Shown here in pieces: positions 35,501 through 47,300 of a stretch of 64,000 nt of DNA. Source of the stretch: an uncultured Alphaproteobacteria bacterium (GTDB taxonomy: Bacteria > Pseudomonadota > Alphaproteobacteria > Rhodobacterales > Rhodobacteraceae); contig CAVWAE010000020.1 of NCBI GenBank assembly GCA_963752895.1, positions 60,878 to 124,877 of the forward strand, written 5' to 3'. Numbering within the stretch: the stretch's first letter is position 1; each line of letters opens with the position of its first letter. A program made the position numbers and the translations under genes. Under the pieces are notes generated by a model that saw only the letters and a list, made by a program, of their open reading frames with translations, did not search any database and was not told the DNA's origin.

Positions 35501-36319
35501 GCCCGCGAGGTTGGCGGTGAAATTCAGCGGTGCCTCGGGCGTCGCGCGGTTCAGCGTGACCCGGCCGCCGATCCTGTCGGCGCCATCGGTCGCGAGCGCG
35601 AGATCGGCGACATAGTCGTCGATCGGGCCGGTGCCTTTGAGCTCGAACGACAAGGGCGCGCCGCCGGGCAGGCTGGTGAGCGTGGCGACGATGCCGTTCG
35701 CCCCCTCGTCGAGGTCGAGATCGAGCGCGAGCACGCCTGTGTCGTTGGCGTAGGCCGCCGCCACGGAGAACAAGCCCCTCTGGCCGTCGATGCGTTCGAG
35801 CGTCAAGGCGGCATCTCCGGCGCCCCCTTCGAGCTGGCCGCGCCCCTCCAGCCGAAGCTCGGCGGGCACGCCCAGAACCGGCTCGCCCAGCACCAGGCTG
35901 GCGGCGGAGATCTCGCCGATTTTGATCGAGACCGGCAACTCCGGCAGGGCGAAATCCGAGGTCGCGGGTTGCGGCCCGTCGTTCACCGCGACCGGACGGC
36001 GGACGATCTCGATCCGCTCGGCGGTGAGCGAGTCGATCTCCAACCGGCCCTTCAGCAGCGCCGAGCGGGTCCAGTCGAGCTCGGCGCCTTCCAGCGTGAG
36101 CCAGACTCCGTCGTCGTCGGCCACCGTGAGCCGTTCCATCGTCGCGCGCGACGACAGCGCGCCGGCGAAACCGGTGACCTCCACGGTGCGGCCCGCAGCC
36201 GACAGGTTGTCCTGCAGGAAGTTTTCGAGGATGGATTTGTCATCCGCCGCCTCGTCCTGGGCATATGCCGGCAGGACCGCGAACAGGGCCGCGGCAAGGA
36301 AAGGGGCAAACCGGGTCAA
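32567..36319 (-). CDS. tamB: Translocation and assembly module subunit TamB (DUF490 family)
   Basis: About 1250 aa. TTG start overlaps the tamA TGA (TTTTGA). N-terminal anchor LTRFAPFLAAALFAVLPAYA, long repetitive beta-rich body, C-terminal ..LELSAGTYISDNIYTDVTVGADGRAEVNLNLTLTPNVTARGSVGSDGTTGIGVYFEKDY. Confidence 0.85.
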   Translation of the reverse strand: MTRFAPFLAAALFAVLPAYAQDEAADDKSILENFLQDNLSAAGRTVEVTGFAGALSSRATMERLTVADDDGVWLTLEGAELDWTRSALLKGRLEIDSLTAERIEIVRRPVAVNDGPQPATSDFALPELPVSIKIGEISAASLVLGEPVLGVPAELRLEGRGQLEGGAGDAALTLERIDGQRGLFSVAAAYANDTGVLALDLDLDEGANGIVATLTSLPGGAPLSFELKGTGPIDDYVADLALATDGADRIGGRVTLNRATPEAPLNFTANLAGDPTALMAPDYRDFFGDDVALAVEGQRAADGRLDLSRLDIAADALNLSGNAVIAPGGWPERVSLTGAVVAPDGGPVRLPFGGDPSWVDRLGLTFAYDASLGEDWQADITLDGFSRPDVQLTRATLSGRGTLTPGTDGALPAFGGHVDLTATGLTGAPGSATAALGPNLSGSFDLARTSGETLAFSNLTLGGADYRLAGDVTLDTVVEKLDLVAEGAVLLTADDLSRFGPLSGQDLSGAARLRIEGNAALPGGPFDIDITGTGQDLGIGMAEVDRLFAGASTLAISAARTAEGTEIERLDIRAPGAAATGTGWLAKTGSQLALRLDLPNAALVAEGLDGPLSVQATALQRGRDWDLSLDASGPGGARVNFSGLAETRPRGVVKVTGELSGAIARLSGWSGLARRDIAGSATFSAAGTFDPETGRFVLEGDASGQDLDFDLGAADRLTAGASTASFEIRRKNDGVLIVDQFSLVTPELSLNAKGRAKEDLPRVTFDGRLRDLGQFVPGLPGAFTLSGDAKLSEAGWRVKASGDGPGGTVIKASGDIDGDGQSANLTLTGRVPLALVNDSIAPRALSGMAAFDLRLDGPFALGSISGTLTTRGARAALPTVGLALDPLSVDVSLAAGQATIDANAKVSTGGRLFVRGPVALTAPFLGNLAIDLQNVRLRDESLYDLTLGGNLAMSGALAGGASITGGLQLGTVELRIPETGFGAGGSLDGLTHVGAPPAVRATLARAGQTGSGSGGGSGAEYGLGISIAAPSAVFIRGRGLDAELGGSLTVGGTTRDVVTTGGVSLIRGRLDILGNRLALTEGTATLRGSLDPSLRLLAETDVDDVSVRIAVEGFASNPSVTFSSSPDLPEDEILARLVFGRGLDQISAFQALKLASAIATLSGKGGAGTIGRLREGFGLDDLDVTTNAEGDLELSAGTYISDNIYTDVTVGADGRAEVNLNLTLTPNVTARGSVGSDGTTGIGVYFEKDY

Positions 36320-38118
36320 AACGCCTGCCCGATCCCGATGTAGAGCTGGGCATCCCAGACGCTGTCGAGGCTGGCGCCCGGACCCGAGACCGGCACGGCC
36401 ACGTCGAGGCGGATCGGCCCCAGCCCGGTGTAGTAGCGCAGGCCCGCGCCGGCCCCGATCTGCCAATCGGCATTGTCGAGGAAGGTGTCGGCCCCGACCC
36501 TCCCCGCGTCGGCAAAGGCGACGAGGCCGATCGTGTCGGTCACCTTGTAGCGCAGCTCGGCGGAGCCGCCGAGGAAGGTGCGCCCGCCGATCGTGTCGCC
36601 GCCGCCGAGATCGACCCCCATCGATTGGTAGGGAAAGCCGCGTACGGTGCCGCCGCCGCCGGAGAAGAACAGGAAGTCGGACGGCACGTCTTCCGAGGAC
36701 GGCGCCGCGACATAGCCCACTTGGGCGCGGCCGGCGAGCACGAACCGACCGTCGGCGAAGCCGCGGTAGGCGCGCGCGTCGACATAGGTGCGGGCGCCGA
36801 AGGTCTCGCCGTTGAACTCGTAGAACGGCTCGGCCTCGGCCATGACATAGGTGCCCGTGGTCGGGTCGAGCTGGTTGTCGCGCCGGTCCCAGGTGAGGTC
36901 TGCGGGCAGCGAGAGGAAGGAAAAGCGCCGTTCTCCGAGATCGTCCTCGGTGATCGAGTAATGGTAGGCGAGCGCGGCTGAGCCCGCGAGTTCGGGGGTG
37001 AAATAGCGCTGCACCCCGGCCCCGCCACCGCCGCCGTAGAGCAGGTAGCCGGGATCGTCGAGGTAGCTGCCTTCGAGGAACACGAAGGCATCGTTGTCGG
37101 TGCCGAAGGCGGCGGGGATGTCGAGCCGGGCAAGCGCCTCGGCATCCATGCCGTCGAGCGTGCCGTCGATGCCGGAGATTTCGCCGTCTAGCCGAAGACG
37201 CTCGGCGCCGCCGAGCAGGTTGCGGTGCATCCAGAAGCCCGACAGCGACAGCCCTTCGAGCGACGCGAGCTCGGCGCCGAACCCGAAGCGGCGGGGTTTT
37301 TCATCCGTGAGCGCCACGGCGACATCCATCGTGTCGCCGGGGCCGAGGGTTTCGGCCTCGGTGAGCGCGACCGAGGCGAAGGCACCGGTGCGCCGCAGCC
37401 GTTGCGCGGCCAGGTCGACCTCGTCGGGAGAATAGACCTCGCCGGTCGGGAGCCCGGCGATCCGCTGGACCCGCTCCGCGCGCACCGCCGACGGGGTGGT
37501 CTGGACGAGGTCGCCGAGTGTGACCAGCGGCCCCGGCGTGAGACGGACGTTGGCATCAAGCGTCTGGTTGCGGTGATCGGCGGACACGCTCTGCGCCGCC
37601 ACCGCCGCCTTGGCCCGGCCGGCATCGCGCCAGTCGGACACCGCGGCGTCGACCGCGCCCTGCACCGCCCTGCTGTAGGCGGGCGCGCCGGCCTCGACCG
37701 CCGAGGGCGCGGTGGAGCCAGGGGCGCGCGGCCCGATCGCCACCTTGCCGAACTGGAACTGCGGGCCGGGATCGACCGCGACCGTGACGGAGCCGATCTG
37801 AGCGGGCGCGGCAAACGGCGACAGGGCCGCGGCTTCGCGGCCATCGACCCGGATCCGGACAACGCCGCCGTAATAGCCCTCGCCGTAGAGCGCGTTGACG
37901 AGGCGGGCGTAGTCGGCCCGCGCCGCCGCCAGCACATCGCGCGGGTCGCGGTCGGCCGTATCCTTGCCGGCATAGAGCAGCGATGCGCCCTGAAGCGCCG
38001 CGGTCACGGCCTTGTCGTCGCCCTTGACCATGAAATCGAGCTGTTGCGCAGGCGCAGGCAAAGCCGCCGCGGCCAGCGCGACGCCCAGAAAGCGAGGAAG
38101 CAATGTCAAATTGGCCAT
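36316..38118 (-). CDS. tamA: Omp85-family outer-membrane protein TamA
   Basis: Start at MANLTLLPRFLGVALAAAALPAPAQ (signal peptide). POTRA-like N-terminal half, then a beta-barrel ending ..LDSVWDAQLYIGIGQAF (terminal aromatic residue). Confidence 0.85.
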   Translation of the reverse strand: MANLTLLPRFLGVALAAAALPAPAQQLDFMVKGDDKAVTAALQGASLLYAGKDTADRDPRDVLAAARADYARLVNALYGEGYYGGVVRIRVDGREAAALSPFAAPAQIGSVTVAVDPGPQFQFGKVAIGPRAPGSTAPSAVEAGAPAYSRAVQGAVDAAVSDWRDAGRAKAAVAAQSVSADHRNQTLDANVRLTPGPLVTLGDLVQTTPSAVRAERVQRIAGLPTGEVYSPDEVDLAAQRLRRTGAFASVALTEAETLGPGDTMDVAVALTDEKPRRFGFGAELASLEGLSLSGFWMHRNLLGGAERLRLDGEISGIDGTLDGMDAEALARLDIPAAFGTDNDAFVFLEGSYLDDPGYLLYGGGGGAGVQRYFTPELAGSAALAYHYSITEDDLGERRFSFLSLPADLTWDRRDNQLDPTTGTYVMAEAEPFYEFNGETFGARTYVDARAYRGFADGRFVLAGRAQVGYVAAPSSEDVPSDFLFFSGGGGTVRGFPYQSMGVDLGGGDTIGGRTFLGGSAELRYKVTDTIGLVAFADAGRVGADTFLDNADWQIGAGAGLRYYTGLGPIRLDVAVPVSGPGASLDSVWDAQLYIGIGQAF

Positions 38119-38326
38119 GGCCGGATCCCACTCAGAACGAAGGGCCGAACCCGCAGCGCTTGTGCCCCTGCCGACTCGGACAGGGACCCAACGCTCTTGA
38201 TCAGCCCCGGGATCCATTATGTGCGCGCAGCGGCACAGGTTACAACTGCTCGTTAAGTCCCGTGGCGGCAATCGGCGAAAACGTGACACCCGCGCGCGGC
38301 AACCGGGTGGCGCCTGGAGAATGCGG

Positions 38327-38929
38327 TCAGAGGGGCAGGCTATGCGCGACGAGGATTGCCCAGATTTCGCGGTTGATCGCCTGGATGTCGGAAAGCGCCT
38401 GGTCGAACTCTGCGAGCGTGGCGCCGTCGAGCGATGTTTCGCCGCCGAGGCGCAGCCCTTTCTTGCGATCGGCGATCCGCATCTCGATGGCTCGCACTGG
38501 CCCGCCCGCGGCGTCGAAGGCATAGATCGAGTGGTTGAGGCGGTTGCGCAGGCCCGAAAGCCGCTTCATCCGGCCCGACACGTCGAGGATCTTCGCCCGG
38601 GCCTCTGCCTCCACCGGGCAGGGCTCTCGCTTGGCCAAGCGCTCGACCATGTCGAGCCGGGCCCGGCTGGTGTTGAGCGTGAGATGGAGGATCGTGGCGG
38701 TTTCCTTGTCGCAGGGCACCAGCCCCGCGAGCAGGTGGATCAGCAAGCTCTCGGTATTGGTCCAGGCATAATTCATCCGGCCGATACGGAGCAGGAACGC
38801 GTCGAATTCCGGCGGCGGCACGGCCCCGCCAACGCCCGCAGGCGTCCCGGGTGAGGCGGCGGGCGGGCGCTCAGCCACCTTGGCCATTCTGGTGATACCA
38901 GACCGCCGCCTCGGTGCGGTTCCGGACAC
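38327..38929 (-). CDS. Hypothetical helical protein, start uncertain (38929, 38887 or 38821)
   Basis: Only ORF-level support, plus its position between luxR and tamA on the same strand. No motif recognised. Confidence 0.4.
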   Translation of the reverse strand: MSGTAPRRRSGITRMAKVAERPPAASPGTPAGVGGAVPPPEFDAFLLRIGRMNYAWTNTESLLIHLLAGLVPCDKETATILHLTLNTSRARLDMVERLAKREPCPVEAEARAKILDVSGRMKRLSGLRNRLNHSIYAFDAAGGPVRAIEMRIADRKKGLRLGGETSLDGATLAEFDQALSDIQAINREIWAILVAHSLPL

Positions 38930-39635
38930 CGAGTTTGCCGATGATCCGGTGCATGTAGAGCTTGACGGTGTGCTCCGACAGCTCCAGCTCGCCCGCGATC
39001 AGCTTGTTGGGACTTCCGGCCGCGGCCATCGCCAGCACCTCGGCCTCGCGCGGCGTCAGCCCGTCTGGCCCCCGGGTCTCGCGCGCAGCGCTCGCATGCC
39101 CCGCCGTTTGGTCGCCAGACGCGGGCGCAGTGGCTGGCGCCGGGTCGGCCGCGATATTGGCCTCAGGCTCAGGCCGCGCCTGCAACAGCTCCGGCGGCAC
39201 GTAGTGGCCCCCGGACTGGATCACCTGCAGGAGCCGCACCCAGTTGGTGACATTGGTGTTCATCGGCAACAGGCTCACCCGCCATTGCAGAAGTTCGTCG
39301 CAGATGTCGGCGAACAGCGCGCAGGCCATGGTCTCGTTTTCGAAGGCGATCGCGAGCCGTTGTTTGGGCAGGTAATCCGCACCCTGCTCAAGCGCGCTCA
39401 GAAGCGCCCGCGCGCAGCTTTCGTGCACCACGACCATATATGCGGGTTTGACGGTTCCGGTTTCGGTCATCCGCGCGAAGCGCAACGCATCCAGGTCGGG
39501 GACCCGCTGCGTCGGGCCGTCGAACTCGTTTTCAACCGTGCGCAGCGCAACTCTCGAAAACATCGCGCTGGGCCCTACGAAGTAAACGCCACCAACGGAT
39601 GATCCGGCCGTAGCGGCCACATTTTGATAAGTCAT
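38871..39635 (-). CDS. LuxR/FixJ-family transcription regulator with degenerate (pseudo-) receiver domain
   Basis: C-terminal HTH LTPREAEVLAMAAAGSPNKLIAGELELSEHTVKLYMHRIIGKLGVRNRTEA. The N-terminal domain has receiver-like topology but lacks the acidic pocket (VYFVGPS, YMVVVHES, SLLPMN). Confidence 0.8.
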   Translation of the reverse strand: MTYQNVAATAGSSVGGVYFVGPSAMFSRVALRTVENEFDGPTQRVPDLDALRFARMTETGTVKPAYMVVVHESCARALLSALEQGADYLPKQRLAIAFENETMACALFADICDELLQWRVSLLPMNTNVTNWVRLLQVIQSGGHYVPPELLQARPEPEANIAADPAPATAPASGDQTAGHASAARETRGPDGLTPREAEVLAMAAAGSPNKLIAGELELSEHTVKLYMHRIIGKLGVRNRTEAAVWYHQNGQGG

Positions 39636-40366: not shown

Positions 40367-41503
40367 ATGGAGAGTAAGATGGCGTTCGGATCAAATAACA
40401 ACGGTATTGGCGGGCTCCCGGGGATGATGCATTTCCCGATACCCGACGATCAGGAACAGCAGCAGCAGCAGCGGCAGCAGGAACAGCAGCAGCAGCGCGA
40501 GCAGCAGCAGCAGCGCGAGGAACAGACGCAGTCGCAAGACTCGACGTCTGACCAGACGCAGACGCAAACCGGTGACAACTCGAACAACAACAGCAACGAG
40601 AACATGTCGGCCACGGACACTTCAACTGTGAGCGACACGTCCACCGGCAGCACCACGTCCACGGACAGCACCACGACCACGGACACGACCACCAGCAGCG
40701 ATCTGCAAGCCAAGCTGGACAGCCTGTCCGACAACGACAACCTGAACGAGAACACGAACGACTCGACCAGCACAACTGACGTCGATGTGGACGTGGATCT
40801 GGGCCTCGACAGCCTGCCTGACGACAACGACTGGGTCGATGTCGATTTCGGCGACAGTTCCAGCATGGGCGATATCTTCGCCGCGAAAGGCGATCTGGAC
40901 TACGACCCGGGCAATGACATCGAGATCAGCGACTTCTTCGACGGCGCGCTCGACGGTGCCGGCAATGACGTAGGCCAGTCGTTCATCGGCTCGAACAACC
41001 TGGTCGACAACGACACGCTGTCGAATGTTCAGCTCACGAACAGCGCCCCGTTCACCGCGACCGCGACGGGTGGCACCGCGACCGCCGATGAGGGGATCGA
41101 GCTCGAGAACGAACCCTATGGCGAGGTCGAAGCGGAAGCCGAGGCCGAGGCCGAAGTCGACGGCGGCGGCGGCCAATTCGGCGGCTTGCCGCCTCTCGTT
41201 GCGATGCGGGAAGGTGGTGGCGGCCGGCCTGGTAACGACGAAGAGGGCGCCCGAGGCGAAGTCGACGGCAATGTCAGCGCCGATGGCGAAGCCGAAGTCG
41301 AACTCGGCGATTGGGGTTCGGGCAACGGCCGTGACGGCATTGTCGAGGGCAACTCGCTCGCCGACGCGGACGCAACGCTCGATATCTCGGCGTTCAACCA
41401 GAATATTGTTCTGGGCGCGAACGTACTCGGCAACTCTGTCGATACCACCGTCGTCGGTGGCAACATGGACATGAGCTACGACATGGACGACAGCGTCAGC
41501 TGA
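40367..41503 (+). CDS. Highly acidic, Gln/Ser/Thr/Asp/Asn-rich low-complexity protein, probable type I secretion substrate (non-RTX)
   Basis: 378 aa with no signal peptide. Contains QEQQQQQRQQEQQQQREQQQQREEQ, TSTVSDTSTGSTTSTDSTTTTDTTT, EAEAEAEAEV and a C-terminal NQNIVLGANVLGNSVDTTVVGGNMDMSYDMDDSVS. Alternative ATG at 40379 behind GGAGAG. Sits upstream of the T1SS genes. Confidence 0.6.
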   Translation: MESKMAFGSNNNGIGGLPGMMHFPIPDDQEQQQQQRQQEQQQQREQQQQREEQTQSQDSTSDQTQTQTGDNSNNNSNENMSATDTSTVSDTSTGSTTSTDSTTTTDTTTSSDLQAKLDSLSDNDNLNENTNDSTSTTDVDVDVDLGLDSLPDDNDWVDVDFGDSSSMGDIFAAKGDLDYDPGNDIEISDFFDGALDGAGNDVGQSFIGSNNLVDNDTLSNVQLTNSAPFTATATGGTATADEGIELENEPYGEVEAEAEAEAEVDGGGGQFGGLPPLVAMREGGGGRPGNDEEGARGEVDGNVSADGEAEVELGDWGSGNGRDGIVEGNSLADADATLDISAFNQNIVLGANVLGNSVDTTVVGGNMDMSYDMDDSVS

Positions 41504-41690: not shown

Positions 41691-43967
41691 ATGCTTGACA
41701 GACATTCCGAGATCATCGCGCATTTTATTGGCCAATTCGACCAGATCGCAGAACAGTCGCTTTACCGGCAGCAATACGATGCCTTTCGCGCCCAGCAGCG
41801 ACCCCAGGAGGAGCCCGGCCCCCTGCTCAACGTGAACGTGCGGGTCACCTCCGAGCTGCTGCCCGACAAACATGTCGCCGGTGGGGTCCGGTGGTACGAG
41901 CAGAAGCCTGCGCCACAGCGCGACCAGGAGGACCTCGAGGTTACCGCCCGCGACACCGGGCCCGTTCTGGACGTTCCGGCAGCGACCTTCGCCGAAACCT
42001 TCGTCGAACTCGAGTTCCAGCTTGAACTTCCGTATTTCGCGTTCGAATTCACGCCGGGATTGCCGGAAACGCCGGTTTTCGAGTTCGGGCCGCCCGGCAA
42101 CGTGATGATTTTCGCGTATCAACAGAACATATTGCAGGACAACGACCTGCTGCTCACCCGTCCGCTGGACCTTTCCCCGGAACTTGCCGCCAGTCGCTCC
42201 GACGCGGCCCTCGATGACGGCCTGATGACGCTTGCGGCCACCGCCGACGCACTCGTGCCCGGCGACTTCACCCTCGGCCGCGAGATCGAAGATACCGCGG
42301 CGCGGATCGAGACCCTGCGCGAGACCTTCGCGGGCGTCGACCCGGCAGAGGCCCCGGACGGGGCGACCGTCACACTTGTCAGCCAGGCCGACGGGACGCT
42401 GCCCGAAAGCGGTATTCTCATCGACGGCGAAGAGGCGGAGAGCCTGCCCACCACGCTCGAAGAGGCGCTGGACGCACGCGGCTACGGCGACAACGCAGAA
42501 GACGGGGATGCGGACGGCAGTGACGGCGAAGACGCCGATGAAGACACCGACTCCGGAAGCGGCGAAGACGCAGGCGGCGACGCTGTGTTGGTCGCGACGA
42601 TCACCATCGGCCCGGACGACACCGGTCCGCACGCGGAGGCGATGCAACTGATCGAGACCGGCGGCAACCTCCTGATGAACAACGCCGTTTCCGGCTTTGC
42701 GCCGGTCGACGCGCCGCTGATCGCGGTCGGGGGTCAGGCGATGTCGCTCACGGTCATCAGCCAGGTCAACGTGATGAGCGACCGCGACACGCTGGTCGGA
42801 CCGGACGACGCCGTCTGCACCGGCGCCGACCACCCGTTCCAGGATGCGGCCTCCGAGGGTCACAACATCGCCAGCGTCAAATGGGAAGGCGTGAGCCGGG
42901 GCCATCCGGAGAACGCCGGTAAAGAGAACGCAAACGGTGCCAGCAACGGCAATGCCAATGGCCCCGGGAATGCCAACGGCAAAGGGATCGGCATCGGGAA
43001 TGGCAACGGCAATGCCAAAGCCAACGGCCACGGCACCGATGAAGACGACGACAATGGCCCGATAGCATTCGCGATCACGGAAATCGACGGCGACCTGGTG
43101 CTGACCACCCACGTCGTCCAGCTCAACCTGGTGACCGACAACGACGTGATCACCTTCGAGACGACGGTCCATGAGGTCGAGATCGGCACCGGTGGCAACG
43201 TTTCGGTCGATGTGCTGAACGCGCTCGGGTTTCAGAACGGGTTCGACATGATCCTGGTCGGCGGCGACATGCTGAACCTGGTGTCGATCTCGCAGCTGAA
43301 CATGATTTTCGACAACGACCTGGTCGCCGATGGCGACGGTGTCGGCGGCGACATCGACACTTCGGGCAACCTGCTCTGGAACGAGACCCAGGTCACCTGG
43401 CACGGGATCGACACCGCCGCCGAAGAGGTCTCGGACAGCGCCGCTGAGGCGCTCGAGACGATGGCCGGCGGCCAGCTCGATTTCGAGGCGCTGAAGGGCG
43501 AAAGCCTGCTCGACGGCAAGGAAGTGCCGCTTCTGCTCACGATCGGCGGCAACCTGGTTTTCGACTACCGGCTGGAACAGATCAACATCCTGGCCGATGC
43601 GGACACCGTGCAGCTGTTCGCCGACATGGCCCTGGAAAACGGCTTCAACCCGGTCGACGTGGCGACCGGCGACAACCTGCTCGCCAACGTGGCGAGCCTC
43701 GATATCCACGGTACCGACAGCACGATCATGGCGTCGGGCGGCGTCTTCTCCGACTTGGTGATCCACCAGGCCGGCATGTACGACACCGACGACACACCAC
43801 AGGATCTGGGTGGCGCCGGATCGGACCTCGCGAGCGAGGCGGTGGTGTTCCTGGCGGACGGCATGATCGACGACGGCCACGGGATCGAACCCGGCGGCGG
43901 CGAGGTGATCGTCGACACCGGCGGCGGCTCGGGCACCTTTGACACGCTGGGCGGCGTGGTTGCGTGA
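41691..43967 (+). CDS. Large acidic repeat protein, probable type I secretion substrate (non-RTX)
   Basis: 758 aa with no signal peptide. Five Q-x-N-h-h-x-D-x-D motifs, an Asp/Gly/Glu-rich linker, an Asn/Gly-rich tract and a C-terminus ..GGGSGTFDTLGGVVA. GGGGG Shine-Dalgarno before the ATG. The T1SS ABC gene follows after 49 nt. Confidence 0.65.
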   Translation: MLDRHSEIIAHFIGQFDQIAEQSLYRQQYDAFRAQQRPQEEPGPLLNVNVRVTSELLPDKHVAGGVRWYEQKPAPQRDQEDLEVTARDTGPVLDVPAATFAETFVELEFQLELPYFAFEFTPGLPETPVFEFGPPGNVMIFAYQQNILQDNDLLLTRPLDLSPELAASRSDAALDDGLMTLAATADALVPGDFTLGREIEDTAARIETLRETFAGVDPAEAPDGATVTLVSQADGTLPESGILIDGEEAESLPTTLEEALDARGYGDNAEDGDADGSDGEDADEDTDSGSGEDAGGDAVLVATITIGPDDTGPHAEAMQLIETGGNLLMNNAVSGFAPVDAPLIAVGGQAMSLTVISQVNVMSDRDTLVGPDDAVCTGADHPFQDAASEGHNIASVKWEGVSRGHPENAGKENANGASNGNANGPGNANGKGIGIGNGNGNAKANGHGTDEDDDNGPIAFAITEIDGDLVLTTHVVQLNLVTDNDVITFETTVHEVEIGTGGNVSVDVLNALGFQNGFDMILVGGDMLNLVSISQLNMIFDNDLVADGDGVGGDIDTSGNLLWNETQVTWHGIDTAAEEVSDSAAEALETMAGGQLDFEALKGESLLDGKEVPLLLTIGGNLVFDYRLEQINILADADTVQLFADMALENGFNPVDVATGDNLLANVASLDIHGTDSTIMASGGVFSDLVIHQAGMYDTDDTPQDLGGAGSDLASEAVVFLADGMIDDGHGIEPGGGEVIVDTGGGSGTFDTLGGVVA

Positions 43968-44016: not shown

Positions 44017-45933
44017 ATGACGAGCAGGAAGGAAAAGGCGCAAACCGGCGCACCGGTGACGATTGACGCGAAGGTGAACTCCGCAGTTCCCGGGACGGTG
44101 CAAGGCGGAGGCGGCGGCGCAAAGACGCCCGGCTTCCACAAGCGCACGCAGCCGGAAGACCACACCAGGACCATGGCGCGGGTCCGGCGCCGGCTCAGCG
44201 CCAATATCGTGTTCGTCGCGCTGATGACCGTGGGCACCAACGTCTTGATCCTCGCGGTGCCGATCTATCTGTTCCAGATCTCCACCCGGGTGCTCACCTC
44301 GCGCTCGACCGACACGCTGGCGATGCTCACGATCGTCGTGGTCGGCGCGATCGCGGTGCAATCCGCGCTCGACGCCCTCAGGCGCTTCGTGCTGATGCGC
44401 ACCGCGGTCGATGTCTCGGCAAGCCTCGGCGGCGCGGTGCTGTCGGCCGCCGCGCAGGCCTCGCTGCATTCCAACGGACGCGAATACCAGGTGCTGGGCG
44501 ATCTCAATTCGCTGCGCGCCTTCCTCGTCTCGGGCACGCTTCTGGCGTTCCTCGACGTGCCCTTCACGCCGATGTTCCTGCTCGCGATCTTCCTGATCCA
44601 TCCCCAGCTCGGCGCCATCGTGATCACCACGGCGCTGATCCTCGCGCTGTTCGCCTGGATCAACCAGAAGATCACCTCCGAAGGGTTCAAGGCCGCCAAC
44701 GCGGCCCAGACCCGGGCCAACCTCCATCTCGAATCGATGTCGCGCAACAGCCAGATCATCAATGCGATGGCGATGATCCCCGAGGCGGTGCGGATCTGGG
44801 GCGCCGACATGGTCGGCTCGCTGACCGCGCAGGTGAAAGCCCAGGACCGCAACATCATGACAGCCGCGCTCTCGCGCTTCTTCCGCCTGCTCGCCCAGAT
44901 CGGGATGCTCGGCTGGGGCGCCTGGCTGGCGCTCCAAGGCGAGCTCACCGGCGGCATGGTGATCGCCGCCTCGATCGTCGCAGGCCGCGCGCTTGCCCCG
45001 ATCGAAGGCGCGATCGAGGGCTGGAACAGCTTTCTCGTGGCGCGCGGCGCCTATGACCGGGTGTCGGCGCTGCTCGCCCGGTCAGCGAAGCGCAACGACA
45101 AGCTGCGGCTGCCGAACCCGGAGGGCCGGCTCGATGTCGAGCGGCTGCTCTACGTGCCCCAGGGCACCAAGCACGTGGTGCTGAACGCGCTCACCTTCAG
45201 CCTTGGCGCGGGCGAAAGCCTTGCGGTGATCGGCAATTCCGGCGCCGGCAAGACGACGCTCGGCAAGATGCTGGTGGGCTCGCTGATGCCGACGTCGGGC
45301 GCGGTGCGGCTCGACCTCATGGACCTGCGCAACTGGGAGCCGCGCCAGCTCGGCGAGATCGTCGGCTACCTGCCGCAGGACGTGCAGCTCTTCCCCGGCA
45401 CGATCAAGGCCAATATCGCGCGGATGCGTCCCGAGGCGACCGACGAACAGATCCACCGCGCCGCCGTGCTCGCGGATGTCCACGAGATGATCGCCTCGCT
45501 GCCACAGGGCTATGAAACGGTGGTGGCCGCCGACGGCGCGCCGCTCTCGGGCGGCCAGAAGCAACGCATCGGCCTGGCCCGTGCCTTCTTCGGCAACCCC
45601 AAGTTCCTCGTGCTCGACGAGCCGAACTCGAACCTCGACACCAACGGCGACCAGGCGCTGGTGCGTGCGCTCGGCCACGCCCGGGCCAATGGCATCACCG
45701 CGGTGGTCATCACTCAGAAACCGGCCCTGCTCACCGCCGTGGACAAGATCATGGCGCTCAACAATGGCAACATCTCCATGTTCGGCTGGCGCGACCAGGT
45801 GCTCGCCGAGCTCCAGAAGTTGAAACAGGCCAAAGCCGCCCGTCTCGCCGCCGCCAAGGCCAAGGCCGACGTGGCGGCCGCCGCGGGGTCCGCCGTCGGC
45901 GCACCCGCCGCACCAGAGGGAGCGATCGCATGA
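44017..45933 (+). CDS. Type I secretion system ABC transporter (PrtD/AprD type, no C39 peptidase domain)
   Basis: TMD ..LILAVPIYLFQISTRVLTSRSTDTL.., Walker A GNSGAGKTTLGKML, signature LSGGQKQRIGLARAF, Walker B FLVLDEPNSNLD. Confidence 0.88.
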   Translation: MTSRKEKAQTGAPVTIDAKVNSAVPGTVQGGGGGAKTPGFHKRTQPEDHTRTMARVRRRLSANIVFVALMTVGTNVLILAVPIYLFQISTRVLTSRSTDTLAMLTIVVVGAIAVQSALDALRRFVLMRTAVDVSASLGGAVLSAAAQASLHSNGREYQVLGDLNSLRAFLVSGTLLAFLDVPFTPMFLLAIFLIHPQLGAIVITTALILALFAWINQKITSEGFKAANAAQTRANLHLESMSRNSQIINAMAMIPEAVRIWGADMVGSLTAQVKAQDRNIMTAALSRFFRLLAQIGMLGWGAWLALQGELTGGMVIAASIVAGRALAPIEGAIEGWNSFLVARGAYDRVSALLARSAKRNDKLRLPNPEGRLDVERLLYVPQGTKHVVLNALTFSLGAGESLAVIGNSGAGKTTLGKMLVGSLMPTSGAVRLDLMDLRNWEPRQLGEIVGYLPQDVQLFPGTIKANIARMRPEATDEQIHRAAVLADVHEMIASLPQGYETVVAADGAPLSGGQKQRIGLARAFFGNPKFLVLDEPNSNLDTNGDQALVRALGHARANGITAVVITQKPALLTAVDKIMALNNGNISMFGWRDQVLAELQKLKQAKAARLAAAKAKADVAAAAGSAVGAPAAPEGAIA

Positions 45934-47300
45934 ACGCCCAGACTGCCCTCCCCGTCCCGACTGCCCTGGCGCCGGCAGCGCCGGCCCCGGCCGAGAGCTG
46001 GGACGCCAATGTGCCGCGCCGGGTGCGCTATCACGTGATCGCCGGGCTGATGATCATCCTCGCCGCCTTCGGCGGGTTCGGCACCTGGGCGGTCACCGCA
46101 CCGCTCGCTGCCGCGATCATGTCGCCCGGCTCCTTCGTCGCCACCGGGCGCAACAAGCTGGTGCAGCACCTCGAAGGCGGGATCATCGCCGATCTCAGCG
46201 TCGCCGAGGGCGACCGGGTTGTCGCCGGCCAGCCGATGATCCGGCTCGACGAGACCTCGGCGCTCGCCACCCAGCGGGCCCTGTTCCTGCGCAGGGTCCG
46301 CCTCGAAGCGATGGAGGCGCGGATCCTTGCGGAATACGAGGCCGAGCCCGAACTCGTGTTCCCGCTCCACCTCATGGAGAGCCGGATCGACCCCGAGGTC
46401 GCCACCATCCTCGACAACCAGCTCTTGTCCTTCACCGTCGCTCGCTCGCAGCTCGAAAACGACATCGACCTGATCGAGCGAAATGTCGCGGTCATGGAGC
46501 AGCGCATGCGCGGCTACGAGGCCCAGCGCGACGCGCTGTCGCGCCAGATCGCGCTGCTGTCGGAGGATCGCGTGTCCAAGGCCCAGCTCCTCGACAAGGG
46601 GTTGATCCGCCGGTCCGAATTGAACGCGCTGGACCGGGCGCTGGCCGAAGCGGAAGGCCAGTTCGGCCGGATGGAGGCGGAAATCGCCGAATCGCTGGAG
46701 TTGATGGCCAAGTACGACGCCCAGAAACGCCAGGCGATCGACACCTACCGCCAGGCCGCGCTCGACGAGCTCGAAAGCGTCCAGGCCGAGCTCGACACCG
46801 TGCGCGAAAAGGAACGCGATGCGCAATCGATCCTTCGCCGGGTCGTGATCGAGGCCCCGGTTTCGGGCACCGTCGTCCGGCTCAATTATTCGAGCGTCGG
46901 CGGCGTGATCGAGGCCGGCAAAGTGATCGCCGAAGTGTTGCCGACCGACGTGCCGCTCATCATCGAGACGATGATCGCGCGCACCGACATCGACGCGGTC
47001 AAGGTCGGCCAGCCCGCGGGCGTGATGCTGACCGCGCTCAACAGGCGCACCACCCCGGTTCTCAACGGCGAGGTCTTCTACCTGTCCGCCGATGCGATCG
47101 TCCAGAACGGCGCCGAGGACCAGGAGGTCTACATCGCGCGGATCCAGATCCCGGTGTCCGAACTCGACCGGGTGTCCGGTTTTGCGCCGGTCCCGGGCAT
47201 GCCGGTGCAGGTGATGATCCAGACCGCGGAGCGCACCTTCCTCCAATACATCATGAAACCGGTAACGGACTCGATGCAGCGCGCATTCCGGGAGAACTAG
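45930..47300 (+). CDS. Type I secretion membrane-fusion (HlyD-family) adaptor
   Basis: ATGA overlap with the ABC gene. N-terminal TM IAGLMIILAAFGGFGTWAV, lipoyl-like GIIADLSVAEGDRVVAGQPMIRLD, long coiled coil, C-terminal ..PGMPVQVMIQTAERTFLQYIMKPV. Confidence 0.88.
   Translation: MNAQTALPVPTALAPAAPAPAESWDANVPRRVRYHVIAGLMIILAAFGGFGTWAVTAPLAAAIMSPGSFVATGRNKLVQHLEGGIIADLSVAEGDRVVAGQPMIRLDETSALATQRALFLRRVRLEAMEARILAEYEAEPELVFPLHLMESRIDPEVATILDNQLLSFTVARSQLENDIDLIERNVAVMEQRMRGYEAQRDALSRQIALLSEDRVSKAQLLDKGLIRRSELNALDRALAEAEGQFGRMEAEIAESLELMAKYDAQKRQAIDTYRQAALDELESVQAELDTVREKERDAQSILRRVVIEAPVSGTVVRLNYSSVGGVIEAGKVIAEVLPTDVPLIIETMIARTDIDAVKVGQPAGVMLTALNRRTTPVLNGEVFYLSADAIVQNGAEDQEVYIARIQIPVSELDRVSGFAPVPGMPVQVMIQTAERTFLQYIMKPVTDSMQRAFREN

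What the first reader, a model, noticed from the sequence alone, without database searches (positions are those of the whole stretch)
42121..43604. Five copies of a Q-x-N-h-h-x-D-x-D motif define an unrecognised repeat in the 758-aa protein
Read directly: QQNILQDND (42121-42147), SQVNVMSDRD (42759-42788), VQLNLVTDND (43116-43145), SQLNMIFDND (43290-43319) and EQINILADAD (43575-43604). Most are preceded 10-20 residues upstream by a G-(G/D)-(N/D)-(L/M)-(L/V) element (GGNLLMNNA, DGDLVLTT, GGDMLNLV, GGNLVFDY). The smaller protein has related strings (NQNIVLGANVLGNSVDTTVVGGN). Alternating hydrophobic residues flanked by Asn and Asp ladders are what a Ca-binding or Asn-ladder beta-solenoid would look like. 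This would be a functional analogue of RTX repeats with a different sequence grammar.
Basis: seen in the sequence. Interest (0 to 1): 0.6.

Follow-up and report, generated by a model that had tools for sequence, protein, structure and literature searches.

The report
New repeat family in secreted protein
The five motif copies are real and mark an undescribed two-part repeat in a very acidic protein that many alphaproteobacteria encode next to its own type I export pump, so it is probably a new kind of secreted beta-sheet repeat protein distinct from the classical calcium-binding RTX proteins.

Summary
The 758-aa protein (41691-43967, +) has five exact Q-x-N-h-h-x-D-x-D matches, against 0.0014 expected by chance. 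A sixth, degenerate copy lies at aa 693.

These motifs are the cores of about 30-aa "B" units. The B units alternate with a second, unnoticed "A" unit (T-G-x-N-x-L-x-N-x-A...G-x-D).

No Pfam, NCBIfam or PDB sequence match exists for the protein or for 37 homologues. Foldseek found no significant structural neighbour for confident AlphaFold2 models.

The family is large: 760 clusters at 50% identity. It occurs in 44 of 299 sampled near-complete genomes of its order, and also in Paracoccus denitrificans, Sinorhizobium and Mesorhizobium.

In all 83 fetched loci the gene directly precedes PrtD-type ABC and HlyD genes. Where the flank is present, it usually follows a low-complexity partner protein and a divergent LuxR-type regulator.

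Coevolution analysis indicates that like units stack in register and that A strands run opposite to B strands. That suggests a two-layer cross-beta, solenoid-like core with Asn ladders.

Export through the type I system, calcium binding and the biological role remain inferences.

The same scan had noted this cassette on this same stretch, not on other DNA.

Verdict: a new repeat family, a new variant of type I secretion cargo.

The parts
41691..43967 (+). 758-aa very acidic protein (D+E 137, K+R 25, 1 Cys), the repeat protein under study
   Evidence: ORF. Composition. 79 homologues and 760 clusters at 50% identity. No Pfam or NCBIfam hit.
41691..41798 (+). Conserved N-terminal helix (aa 1-36, MLDRxTEIIAHFIGxF...R..YD.F). 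It has no Sec-type hydrophobic signal by eye.
   Evidence: Alignment A1 gives Y29 invariant and D3, I9, H11, F12, G14 and R26 nearly invariant. Helices 4-36 in the AF2 model.
42069..42158 (+). B0 unit (aa 127-156), motif QQNILQDND at 42120-42146. It is an orphan B unit ahead of a helical subdomain (aa 163-262).
   Evidence: DCA pair N146-N479 has z 13.5.
42636..42710 (+). A1 unit (aa 316-340), ETGGNLLMNNA
   Evidence: DCA pair L328-L634 has z 13.7.
42711..42800 (+). B1 unit (aa 341-370), motif QVNVMSDRD at 42762-42788
42843..42896 (+). A2 unit, degenerate (aa 385-402; N392 invariant and A394 nearly invariant in A1)
   Evidence: (56-70% to other A units).
42900..43040 (+). Asn/Gly-rich insertion (aa 404-450), disordered, absent from the other 37 aligned homologues
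   Evidence: A1 alignment columns 597-636. pLDDT below 50. DNA repeat family D2.
43062..43160 (+). B2 unit (aa 458-490), motif QLNLVTDND at 43119-43145
43167..43241 (+). A3 unit (aa 493-517), GTGGNVSVDVL
43242..43334 (+). B3 unit (aa 518-548), motif QLNMIFDND at 43293-43319
43338..43424 (+). A4 unit (aa 550-578), TSGNLLWNET
   Evidence: DCA pairs L562-L664 and G559-D661.
43521..43619 (+). B4 unit (aa 611-643), motif QINILADAD at 43578-43604. It is preceded by a helical insert (aa 582-601).
43644..43718 (+). A5 unit (aa 652-676), ATGDNLLANVA
43719..43796 (+). B5 unit, degenerate (aa 677-702), QAGMYDTDD, Gln invariant
   Evidence: (59-68% to B1 and B3).
43797..43964 (+). Disordered C-terminal tail. 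It carries the conserved LASEAVxFLADGM segment and the ending D-[VI]-M-Q-T-[MV]-L-A (here FDTLGGVVA). Candidate type I secretion signal.
   Evidence: L713, E716, F720 and D751 invariant. Asp at position -8 in 98% of 281 members. pLDDT below 50.
40367..41503 (+). 378-aa acidic low-complexity partner protein. It has a B-like motif GSNNLVDND (40988-41014) and a conserved C-terminal module with an A-like unit, AFNQNIVLGANVLGNSVDTTVVGGN (41390-41464).
   Evidence: A homologue is detected upstream of the big gene in 77 of 83 loci. C-terminal 55 aa highly conserved while length varies from 76 to 1178 aa. hhalign results.
44017..45933 (+). PrtD-type type I secretion ABC permease/ATPase
   Evidence: TIGR01842 at 677 bits against a cut-off of 510. 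Directly downstream of the big gene in all 83 loci.
45930..47300 (+). HlyD-family type I secretion periplasmic adaptor
   Evidence: TIGR01843 at 373 bits against a cut-off of 209. Conserved position.
38871..39635 (-). Divergent LuxR/GerE-family regulator
   Evidence: PF00196 at 4e-19. A homologue is found in 73 of 83 loci, upstream and divergent in all but one.

Best explanation
The 758-aa protein belongs to a large, so far undescribed alphaproteobacterial family of very acidic proteins. These are most likely exported by the dedicated PrtD/HlyD type I secretion system encoded immediately downstream, using an unlinked TolC.

Its core (aa 127-156 and 313-702) is built from two alternating repeat units.
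- Six B units of about 30 aa: a short strand, a G-G-(D/N) turn, then a long strand carrying Q-x-N-h-L-x-D-x-D.
- Five A units of about 25 aa: a short strand, a T-G-x-N turn, then a long strand L-x-N-x-A-x-I...G-x-D.

Like units lie side by side in register, and A strands run opposite to B strands. The core is therefore a two-layer cross-beta, solenoid-like sandwich. The conserved Asn, Gln and Leu face is buried as ladders. The Asp-rich turns line the two edges.

By analogy with RTX proteins I infer that the protein crosses the envelope unfolded, guided by its conserved disordered C-terminal tail. I also infer that it folds outside the cell, probably with Ca2+ or Mg2+ neutralising the Asp-lined edges.

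A co-conserved low-complexity partner protein carries one B-like and one A-like unit at either end of a variable Gly/Ala-rich spacer. This suggests that it docks on, or extends, the big protein's sheets to form a surface or matrix structure. The adjacent LuxR-type regulator would control this.

Shown: the repeat, its conservation, the family, the gene neighbourhood, the predicted beta repeat architecture and in-register coevolution.

Inferred: secretion, metal dependence, partner docking and the biological role.
For: - The motif is far above chance: 5 observed against 0.0014 expected.
- Profile-profile comparison gives two unit classes.
- Motif residues are conserved across 281 members.
- No described family matches.
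- The family has 760 clusters, 527 of them at E<=1e-30. 144 species loci were found. 44 of 299 near-complete genomes of the order have it.
- The order big gene, then prtD, then hlyD holds in all 83 loci wherever the flank suffices. The small-protein and luxR homologues are present in most.
- A TolC gene over its family cut-off lies elsewhere in the genome.
- The AF2 core model has pLDDT 80 and pTM 0.75, with a repeating pattern of short strand, 3-residue Gly turn and long strand.
- In DCA, 14 pairs exceed every score from a column-shuffled control. They include the in-register pairs N146-N479, L562-L664 and G559-D661, and the A-B pairs L328-L634, V481-S505 and M362-S388.
- Among the top 60 DCA pairs, 9 of 14 like-unit pairs are in register (background 14%). 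11 of 16 A-B pairs have a constant position sum (background 13%).
- The protein is extremely acidic, has one Cys and has no N-terminal hydrophobic signal by reading.
- The C-terminal tail is conserved.
- The partner protein shares the units.
Against: - Foldseek found no significant structural neighbour (best E 0.5 to 1.5 in PDB, 0.08 in BFVD). The beta-helix and solenoid names at the top of the lists are not evidence.
- I could not inspect model coordinates, so the sheet topology rests on DSSP strings and on DCA with a modest Neff of 225.
- The inferred stacking order (B0-B2-B4-B3-B1-B5 and A3-A1-A5-A4-A2) is non-sequential, which is unusual for a solenoid, and several of its links are near noise level.
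- There is no experimental evidence for secretion, metal binding or expression.
- The partner's B-like match is weak (P 0.003).
- The family occurs in only about 15% of sampled genomes of the order, so its role is accessory and unknown.
Confidence: 0.6

Rival explanations
1. A type I secretion dependent functional-amyloid or cross-beta matrix system. The small low-complexity protein would be the polymerising subunit. The big repeat protein would be its nucleator or anchor, analogous to CsgB/CsgA or FapB/FapC, and a CsgD-like LuxR-type regulator would control the system.
For: - Buried Gln/Asn ladders and G-x-N turns resemble the curli repeat grammar.
- The partner protein carries one B-like and one A-like unit at the ends of a spacer that varies from 76 to 1178 aa.
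- FapC and a phage 'curlin associated' protein appear among the top Foldseek names, though non-significantly.
- The regulator hits the CsgD model weakly, at 2.6e-10, well below its cut-off.
Against: - No Curlin_rpt or Fap Pfam hit at E<=1.
- The Foldseek matches are not significant.
- The big protein's core appears closed: A1 pairs with B4. It does not look open-ended.
- No evidence of fibres exists. Many GerE regulators hit CsgD at this level.
Confidence: 0.15
2. A divergent RTX protein: the units would be a degenerate form of the GGxGxDxUx beta-roll.
For: - The context is a PrtD/HlyD operon, as for RTX proteases and lipases.
- The protein is acidic, with Gly-Gly-Asp turns and Asp at strand ends.
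- Alkaline protease appears in the Foldseek list at E of about 7.
Against: - No HemolysinCabind hit at E<=1 in this protein, nor at E<=0.1 in 38 members.
- Only one GG.G.D string is present, and it is not conserved.
- The unit length is 25-30 aa with 10-15-residue strands, against 9-aa half-turns in RTX.
Confidence: 0.03
3. A secreted beta-helix enzyme such as a polysaccharide lyase or glycanase, like the T1SS-exported PlyA/PlyB or ExsH of rhizobia. Alternatively, a T1SS-exported S-layer protein like RsaA.
For: - PrtD-type systems export such proteins (established knowledge).
- In one relative the cassette lies next to polysaccharide-export genes.
Against: - No glycoside hydrolase, lyase, PbH1 or S-layer family hit.
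- Almost all invariant residues lie in the repeat motifs, the N-terminal helix or the C-terminal tail. They do not form a distinct catalytic cluster.
- Flanking genes outside the five-gene cassette differ between lineages.
Confidence: 0.12
4. The motif recurrence is compositional chance in an Asp/Asn-rich protein.
For: The protein is rich in D, N, L and V.
Against: - 5 copies observed against 0.0014 expected, with none of 20,000 shuffles giving 2 or more.
- Each copy is conserved across 281 homologues.
- Unit profiles match each other at up to 98% probability.
Confidence: 0.01

Closest known systems
RTX proteins (HemolysinCabind, PF00353) exported by PrtD/HlyB-type type I systems, e.g. serralysin-family proteases
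   Same: - Very acidic and Cys-poor, with no Sec signal by reading.
- Encoded next to an ABC exporter and a HlyD adaptor, with TolC unlinked.
- Repeats of Gly-rich turn plus beta strand, with Asp at the turns.
- Two parallel sheets of opposite polarity are inferred.
   Different: - No GGxGxDxUx nonapeptide and no Pfam hit.
- Units are 25-30 aa, of two alternating kinds, with 10-15-residue strands and mid-strand Gln/Asn.
- Stacking appears non-sequential.
- Ca2+ binding has not been shown.
Curli CsgA/CsgB (Curlin_rpt) and Pseudomonas FapC functional-amyloid beta-solenoids
   Same: - Strand-turn-strand units.
- Buried, conserved Gln/Asn ladders and Gly-x-Asn turns.
- In-register parallel stacking.
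- A two-protein arrangement with a LuxR/GerE-family regulator nearby.
   Different: - No sequence-family match.
- Export genes are type I (ABC plus HlyD), not CsgG/CsgE/CsgF or FapF.
- The big protein is a 650-760-aa multidomain protein rather than a small fibre subunit.
- No evidence of fibres.
Ca2+-bound beta-solenoid of the Marinomonas primoryensis ice-binding adhesin (region IV), a type I secreted repeat domain
   Same: - Type I secreted.
- T-G-x-N-like turn motif.
- Asp/Asn-lined solenoid. This resemblance is recalled from memory, so it is a lead only.
   Different: - The MpIBP repeat is a regular 19-aa RTX-like unit that stacks sequentially.
- It was not compared here by any tool.
BapA/BapBCD of Paracoccus denitrificans (PMC5588039)
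   Same: An acidic, presumed Ca-binding, non-classical type I secretion cargo involved in biofilm formation, from a genus that also carries the present cassette (locus L061).
   Different: - BapA is a 2,211-aa Asp-Ala repeat protein.
- Its system includes its own outer-membrane component gene.
- It is unrelated in sequence, and the present cassette is not mentioned in that paper.

Membership tests
RTX / HemolysinCabind (PF00353) | Tandem nonapeptides GGxGxDxUx detectable by the Pfam model | tested here: not met
   No Pfam hit at E<=1. None in 38 family members at E<=0.1. One non-conserved GG.G.D string.
RTX / HemolysinCabind (PF00353) | Ca2+ bound in the repeat turns; Ca-dependent folding | not testable with these tools
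   Needs ITC, CD or a structure.
Type I secretion system substrate (functional class) | Encoded adjacent to a T1SS ABC transporter and membrane-fusion protein | tested here: met
   TIGR01842 at 677 bits and TIGR01843 at 373 bits directly downstream. The same order holds in all 83 loci. TolC is present elsewhere in the genome.
Type I secretion system substrate (functional class) | No cleavable N-terminal signal; uncleaved C-terminal secretion signal | tested here: inconclusive
   The N-terminus is a conserved amphipathic helix without a hydrophobic core, by reading. The C-terminal 55 aa are disordered but carry invariant L713, E716, F720 and D751, and end in Asp plus a hydrophobic tail. No signal predictor or secretion assay was available.
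Type I secretion system substrate (functional class) | Acidic pI and few or no cysteines | tested here: met
   D+E 137 against K+R 25, and 1 Cys.
Curli / Curlin_rpt (PF07012) | Curlin repeat detectable by the Pfam model | tested here: not met
   No Pfam hit.
Curli / Curlin_rpt (PF07012) | CsgG/CsgE/CsgF export genes nearby | tested here: not met
   The neighbouring export genes are type I (PrtD-type ABC and HlyD), not CsgG/E/F.
Right-handed parallel beta-helix (PbH1 / Beta_helix) | Family HMM hit or a significant structural match to a solved beta-helix | tested here: not met
   No Pfam hit. The Foldseek best match to beta-helix proteins (Awp3b, SufD, tapirin) has E>=0.5 and TM<0.1.
Beta-solenoid / cross-beta repeat architecture (structural class, not a sequence family) | Repeated strand-turn units whose equivalent positions stack in register in parallel sheets | tested here: inconclusive
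   DSSP of the AF2 models shows the repeating strand-turn-strand pattern. DCA shows in-register like-unit contacts, 9 of 14 against a 14% background, and three of the four like-unit pairs above the shuffled maximum are exactly in register. Against this, coordinates could not be inspected, the stacking order looks non-sequential and no significant Foldseek neighbour was found.

The most novel reading that the evidence does not exclude
The five-gene cassette is a previously unrecognised type I secretion dependent two-component cross-beta assembly system. The big protein would be a closed cross-beta template. Its exposed sheet edges would be completed by the single B-like and A-like units at the two ends of the variable Gly-rich partner protein. 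The result would be a tethered or polymerised extracellular matrix, that is, a functional-amyloid-like pathway independent of curli and Fap.
Probability: 0.15. Interest if true: 0.8.

Novelty: new variant of a known kind. Interest (0 to 1): 0.55.

Why it matters
Type I secretion cargo is recognised in genomes almost entirely through RTX repeats, so non-RTX cargo is usually missed.

This family is large: 760 clusters at 50% identity. It is present in about 15% of sampled Rhodobacterales genomes. It also occurs in laboratory species such as Paracoccus denitrificans and Sinorhizobium meliloti. Nearly everywhere it is labelled 'hypothetical'.

The work here gives:
- a defined repeat grammar of two alternating units;
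- a fold with no significant solved neighbour;
- a fixed five-gene cassette that makes function testable by simple knock-outs.

It would justify new family models for both proteins. It also offers a second, independent example for studying how acidic beta-repeat proteins are kept unfolded for type I export and then fold outside the cell.

Tried and rejected
- Pfam-A, NCBIfam, PDB sequence (single sequence and profile) and Pfam on 38 members gave no family.
- Foldseek of the full-length model and of the trimmed core against PDB, and of the core against BFVD, gave nothing significant. I do not use the solenoid-like names in those lists as evidence.
- Literature searches for a described non-RTX T1SS cargo in Rhodobacteraceae or a T1SS-linked amyloid found nothing on this family.
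- BapA/BapBCD of P. denitrificans is a different system.
- My first guess was that an A unit and the following B unit form one sequential solenoid coil. DCA did not support it. The strong contacts link units i and i+2, and link B(k) with A(k+1).
- A first DCA on anchored windows contained duplicated columns, which gave artefact scores of 38-51. I repeated it on non-redundant columns with a shuffle control.
- I considered a common A/B frame, [G/Q]-x-N-x-L-x-[N/D]-x-[A/D]. A and B profiles do not match each other (below 11%), so I do not claim homology between A and B.
- The model coordinates are not exposed to scripts.
Full report
**Observation**

The ORF at 41691-43967 (+) encodes a 758-aa protein. 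The first begins at nt 42120 rather than 42121.

The strict pattern Q.N[ILVMF][ILVMF].D.D is expected 0.0014 times in a protein of this composition. None of 20,000 shuffles gave more than one match. A sixth, degenerate copy (QAGMYDTDD, aa 693-701) lines up with the others. Even at the DNA level the repeat finder groups four of the five sites at 61-75% identity.

**The family**

The protein has 79 relatives in the 90%-clustered protein collection. All are 'hypothetical' or loosely named 'type I secretion protein', and none has a Pfam domain.

A profile search of 1.84 billion representatives finds 760 clusters at E<=1e-3 and 527 at E<=1e-30. Nearly all are full-length proteins of 640-800 aa.

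Distribution:
- In one-genome-per-species contigs, 144 loci encode a relative. Most are Rhodobacterales, including Thioclava, Paracoccus (with P. denitrificans DSM 413), Cereibacter azotoformans, Roseovarius nubinhibens ISM, Sulfitobacter and Phaeobacter. There are also some Hyphomicrobiales and a Geminicoccaceae MAG.
- Rhizobiaceae replicons carry it too, including Ensifer, Sinorhizobium meliloti Ak57 and Shinella.
- In an even sample of the window's own order, 44 of 299 near-complete genomes and 27 of 113 genera have it, almost always as a single copy.
- The window's genome has one copy.

**No described family fits**

- Pfam-A and NCBIfam return nothing for the protein at E<=1.
- Pfam returns nothing meaningful for 38 diverse members.
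- PDB sequence searches with the protein and with a 77-sequence core profile return nothing.
- The RTX test fails. There is no HemolysinCabind hit, and the single GG.G.D string is not conserved.

**Anatomy of the repeat**

The family alignment shows a second conserved element, T-G-x-N-x-L-x-N-x-A...G-x-D, at aa 324, 501, 558 and 660. A degenerate copy lies around N392/A394.

I cut the family alignment into units and compared their profiles. This gives two classes.
- The clear B units (aa 127-156, 341-370, 458-490, 518-548, 611-643) match each other at 80-98% probability. The unit at 677-702 matches B1 and B3 at 59-68%.
- The clear A units (316-340, 493-517, 550-578, 652-676) match each other at 89-97%. 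The unit at 385-402 is weak, at 56-70% to two A units.
- A against B never exceeds 11%.

Conservation pooled over 81 species:
- B units: Gln 99%, Asn(+2) 67%, Asp(+6) 79%, Asp(+8) 79%, Gly(-10) 75%.
- A units: Asn(0) 99%, Asn(+4) 98%, Gly(-2) 88%.

In 281 distinct members, each unit's Gln is present in 268-281 of them.

The fourth, GGNLLMNNA, is an A unit.

The order along the chain is B0 ... A1 B1 A2 [insert] B2 A3 B3 A4 [helical insert] B4 A5 B5. The Asn/Gly-rich tract at aa 404-450 is an insertion absent from the other 37 aligned homologues.

**Predicted structure**

The full-length AlphaFold2 model from the 38-sequence alignment has mean pLDDT 69 and pTM 0.66.
- The repeat regions are mostly at pLDDT 85-97.
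- Disordered segments lie at aa 36-124, 268-312, 404-450 and 701-758.

The trimmed core (aa 313-702, 77 sequences taken from fetched loci) gives pLDDT 80 and pTM 0.75.

In both models every unit has the same DSSP signature: a 4-5-residue strand, a 3-4-residue Gly turn, then a 10-20-residue strand. In B units this strand ends at the D-x-D and is followed by a further short strand.

Foldseek finds no significant neighbour in PDB, for either the whole model or the core, or in BFVD (best E 0.5, 1.5 and 0.08). The top names are beta-helices, FapC and curlin-associated proteins. At these scores that is not evidence. I had no access to the model coordinates.

**Independent test of the architecture**

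I ran mean-field direct-coupling analysis on 281 family members (Neff 225, 465 columns), with a column-shuffled control. Fourteen pairs exceed the maximum score of the shuffled alignment.
- Like-unit pairs at identical unit positions: N146-N479 (the motif Asn of B0 and B2, z 13.5), L562-L664 and G559-D661 (A4 and A5).
- A like-unit pair two positions out of register: G524-T617 (B3 and B4).
- A-B pairs linking B(+4) with A(+2) or A(0): L328-L634, V481-S505 and M362-S388.

Among the top 60 pairs:
- 9 of 14 like-unit pairs are in register within one residue, against a 14% background.
- 11 of 16 A-B pairs have a constant position sum, against a 13% background. For example, 328-634, 334-626 and 339-622 line up A1 antiparallel to B4.

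The coupled residues lie on the conserved face of each strand: N, L, N, A, I in A units and I, Q, N, L in B units.

The simplest reading is two parallel in-register sheets, one of A strands and one of B strands. They would have opposite polarity and pack by their conserved faces. That is a cross-beta, solenoid-like sandwich with Asn ladders.

The apparent neighbour order is B0-B2-B4-B3-B1-B5 and A3-A1-A5-A4-A2. This order is not sequential, and several of its links are near noise level, so I treat it as tentative. It argues against a simple linear solenoid.

**Genomic context**

- Directly downstream lie a PrtD-type ABC exporter (TIGR01842, 677 bits) and a HlyD adaptor (TIGR01843, 373 bits).
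- Upstream lie a 378-aa acidic low-complexity protein and a divergent LuxR/GerE regulator.
- In all 83 fetched loci the big gene is directly followed by prtD, and then by hlyD wherever the flank suffices. A small-protein homologue is found upstream in 77 loci and a luxR homologue in 73, both mostly limited by contig ends.
- Genes outside these five differ between lineages.
- A TolC gene above its family cut-off lies on another contig of the same genome.
- The big protein has D+E 137 against K+R 25 and one Cys, and an N-terminus that is a conserved amphipathic helix rather than a Sec signal.
- Its disordered C-terminal tail carries invariant L713, E716, F720 and D751. It ends D-[VI]-M-Q-T-[MV]-L-A in the family.

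These are the usual hallmarks of type I cargo, but secretion itself is inferred.

**The partner protein**

Its length varies from 76 to 1178 aa, through low-complexity Gly/Ala/Ser/Thr/Asp tracts. Its last 55 aa or so are highly conserved: WGSxNGDDGyVtGeS..ASA....AFNQSIVMGANVLGNxVDMTVVGG....GDDD.

- This C-terminal module aligns to big-protein aa 487-529, an A unit plus the first strand and GG turn of a B unit (hhalign 67%, P 5e-5).
- A conserved middle region has the consensus Q-x-N-x-L-x-D-N-D, here GSNNLVDND. It matches B0, B1 and B3 only weakly (P 0.003-0.04).

So the partner seems to carry one B-like and one A-like unit separated by a variable spacer. From this I infer, without a test, that it docks on or extends the big protein's sheets.

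**Mechanism proposed**

Shown:
- a conserved bipartite repeat;
- a predicted beta repeat core with in-register coevolution;
- an obligatory T1SS neighbourhood.

Inferred:
- export of the unfolded protein through PrtD/HlyD/TolC, guided by the C-terminal tail;
- folding outside the cell, helped by divalent cations at the Asp-lined G-G-D and D-x-D turns. Some Asp-bearing turn positions of different units covary, but near noise level (D364-N542, D340-D574, D556-D661);
- assembly with the partner into a surface or matrix structure, under control of the LuxR-type regulator.

**Comparison with known systems**

It works most like an RTX protein but fails the RTX membership test. Its Gln/Asn-ladder grammar and two-protein layout recall curli and Fap amyloids, but it matches neither family and uses a different export route. 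BapA of P. denitrificans is another non-classical acidic T1SS cargo but is unrelated (PMC5588039). I found no paper describing this family.

**Verdict**

The repeat is real and undescribed, it is T1SS-linked, and it looks like a beta-stacked structure with Asn ladders. Calcium binding and a true solenoid are not shown.
- This is a new repeat family and a new variant of T1SS cargo, of moderate to good interest.
- The scan's earlier first-reader note on this same stretch (e1-3882080) reached the same cassette-level reading.

Noticed in passing
window 42900-43040: An Asn/Gly-rich tract (aa 404-450), encoded by degenerate AAY-GGC repeats, is an insertion absent from the other 37 aligned homologues. 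It sits in the loop between the degenerate A2 unit and B2 and is predicted disordered. It looks like a lineage-specific slippage product.
   Followed up: partly
window 40367-41503 and loci L001-L083: The partner protein's length ranges from 76 to 1178 aa between species through low-complexity tracts, while its last 55 aa or so are nearly invariant. In a few loci (L018, L032, L065) two ORFs in tandem matched the small protein. Whether these are two genes or a split gene was not checked.
   Followed up: partly
L003 and L087 (Mesorhizobium plurifarium, Sinorhizobium meliloti Ak57): In these rhizobia the cassette lies beside the homogentisate pathway genes (hmgA, hppD). It is followed by a conserved 164-aa hypothetical protein, a TPR protein and a SAM-dependent methyltransferase, which are not part of the Rhodobacterales cassette.
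   Followed up: no
window 36316-38523 (-): A 735-aa ORF upstream of the cassette reads like an outer-membrane BamA/TamA-type (surface antigen) protein. It was not analysed and is not conserved next to the cassette in other loci.
   Followed up: no
G270, G279, G088 and proteins P0211, P0062, P0202: Some relatives are much longer (up to 1251 aa) and match the core profile in two or three separate stretches. This suggests large insertions or extra units in some lineages.
   Followed up: no
window 38871-39635 (-): The LuxR/GerE regulator has no recognised N-terminal domain in Pfam. It is conserved divergently upstream of the cassette in most loci. Its best NCBIfam hits cover only the C-terminal HTH.
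   Followed up: partly
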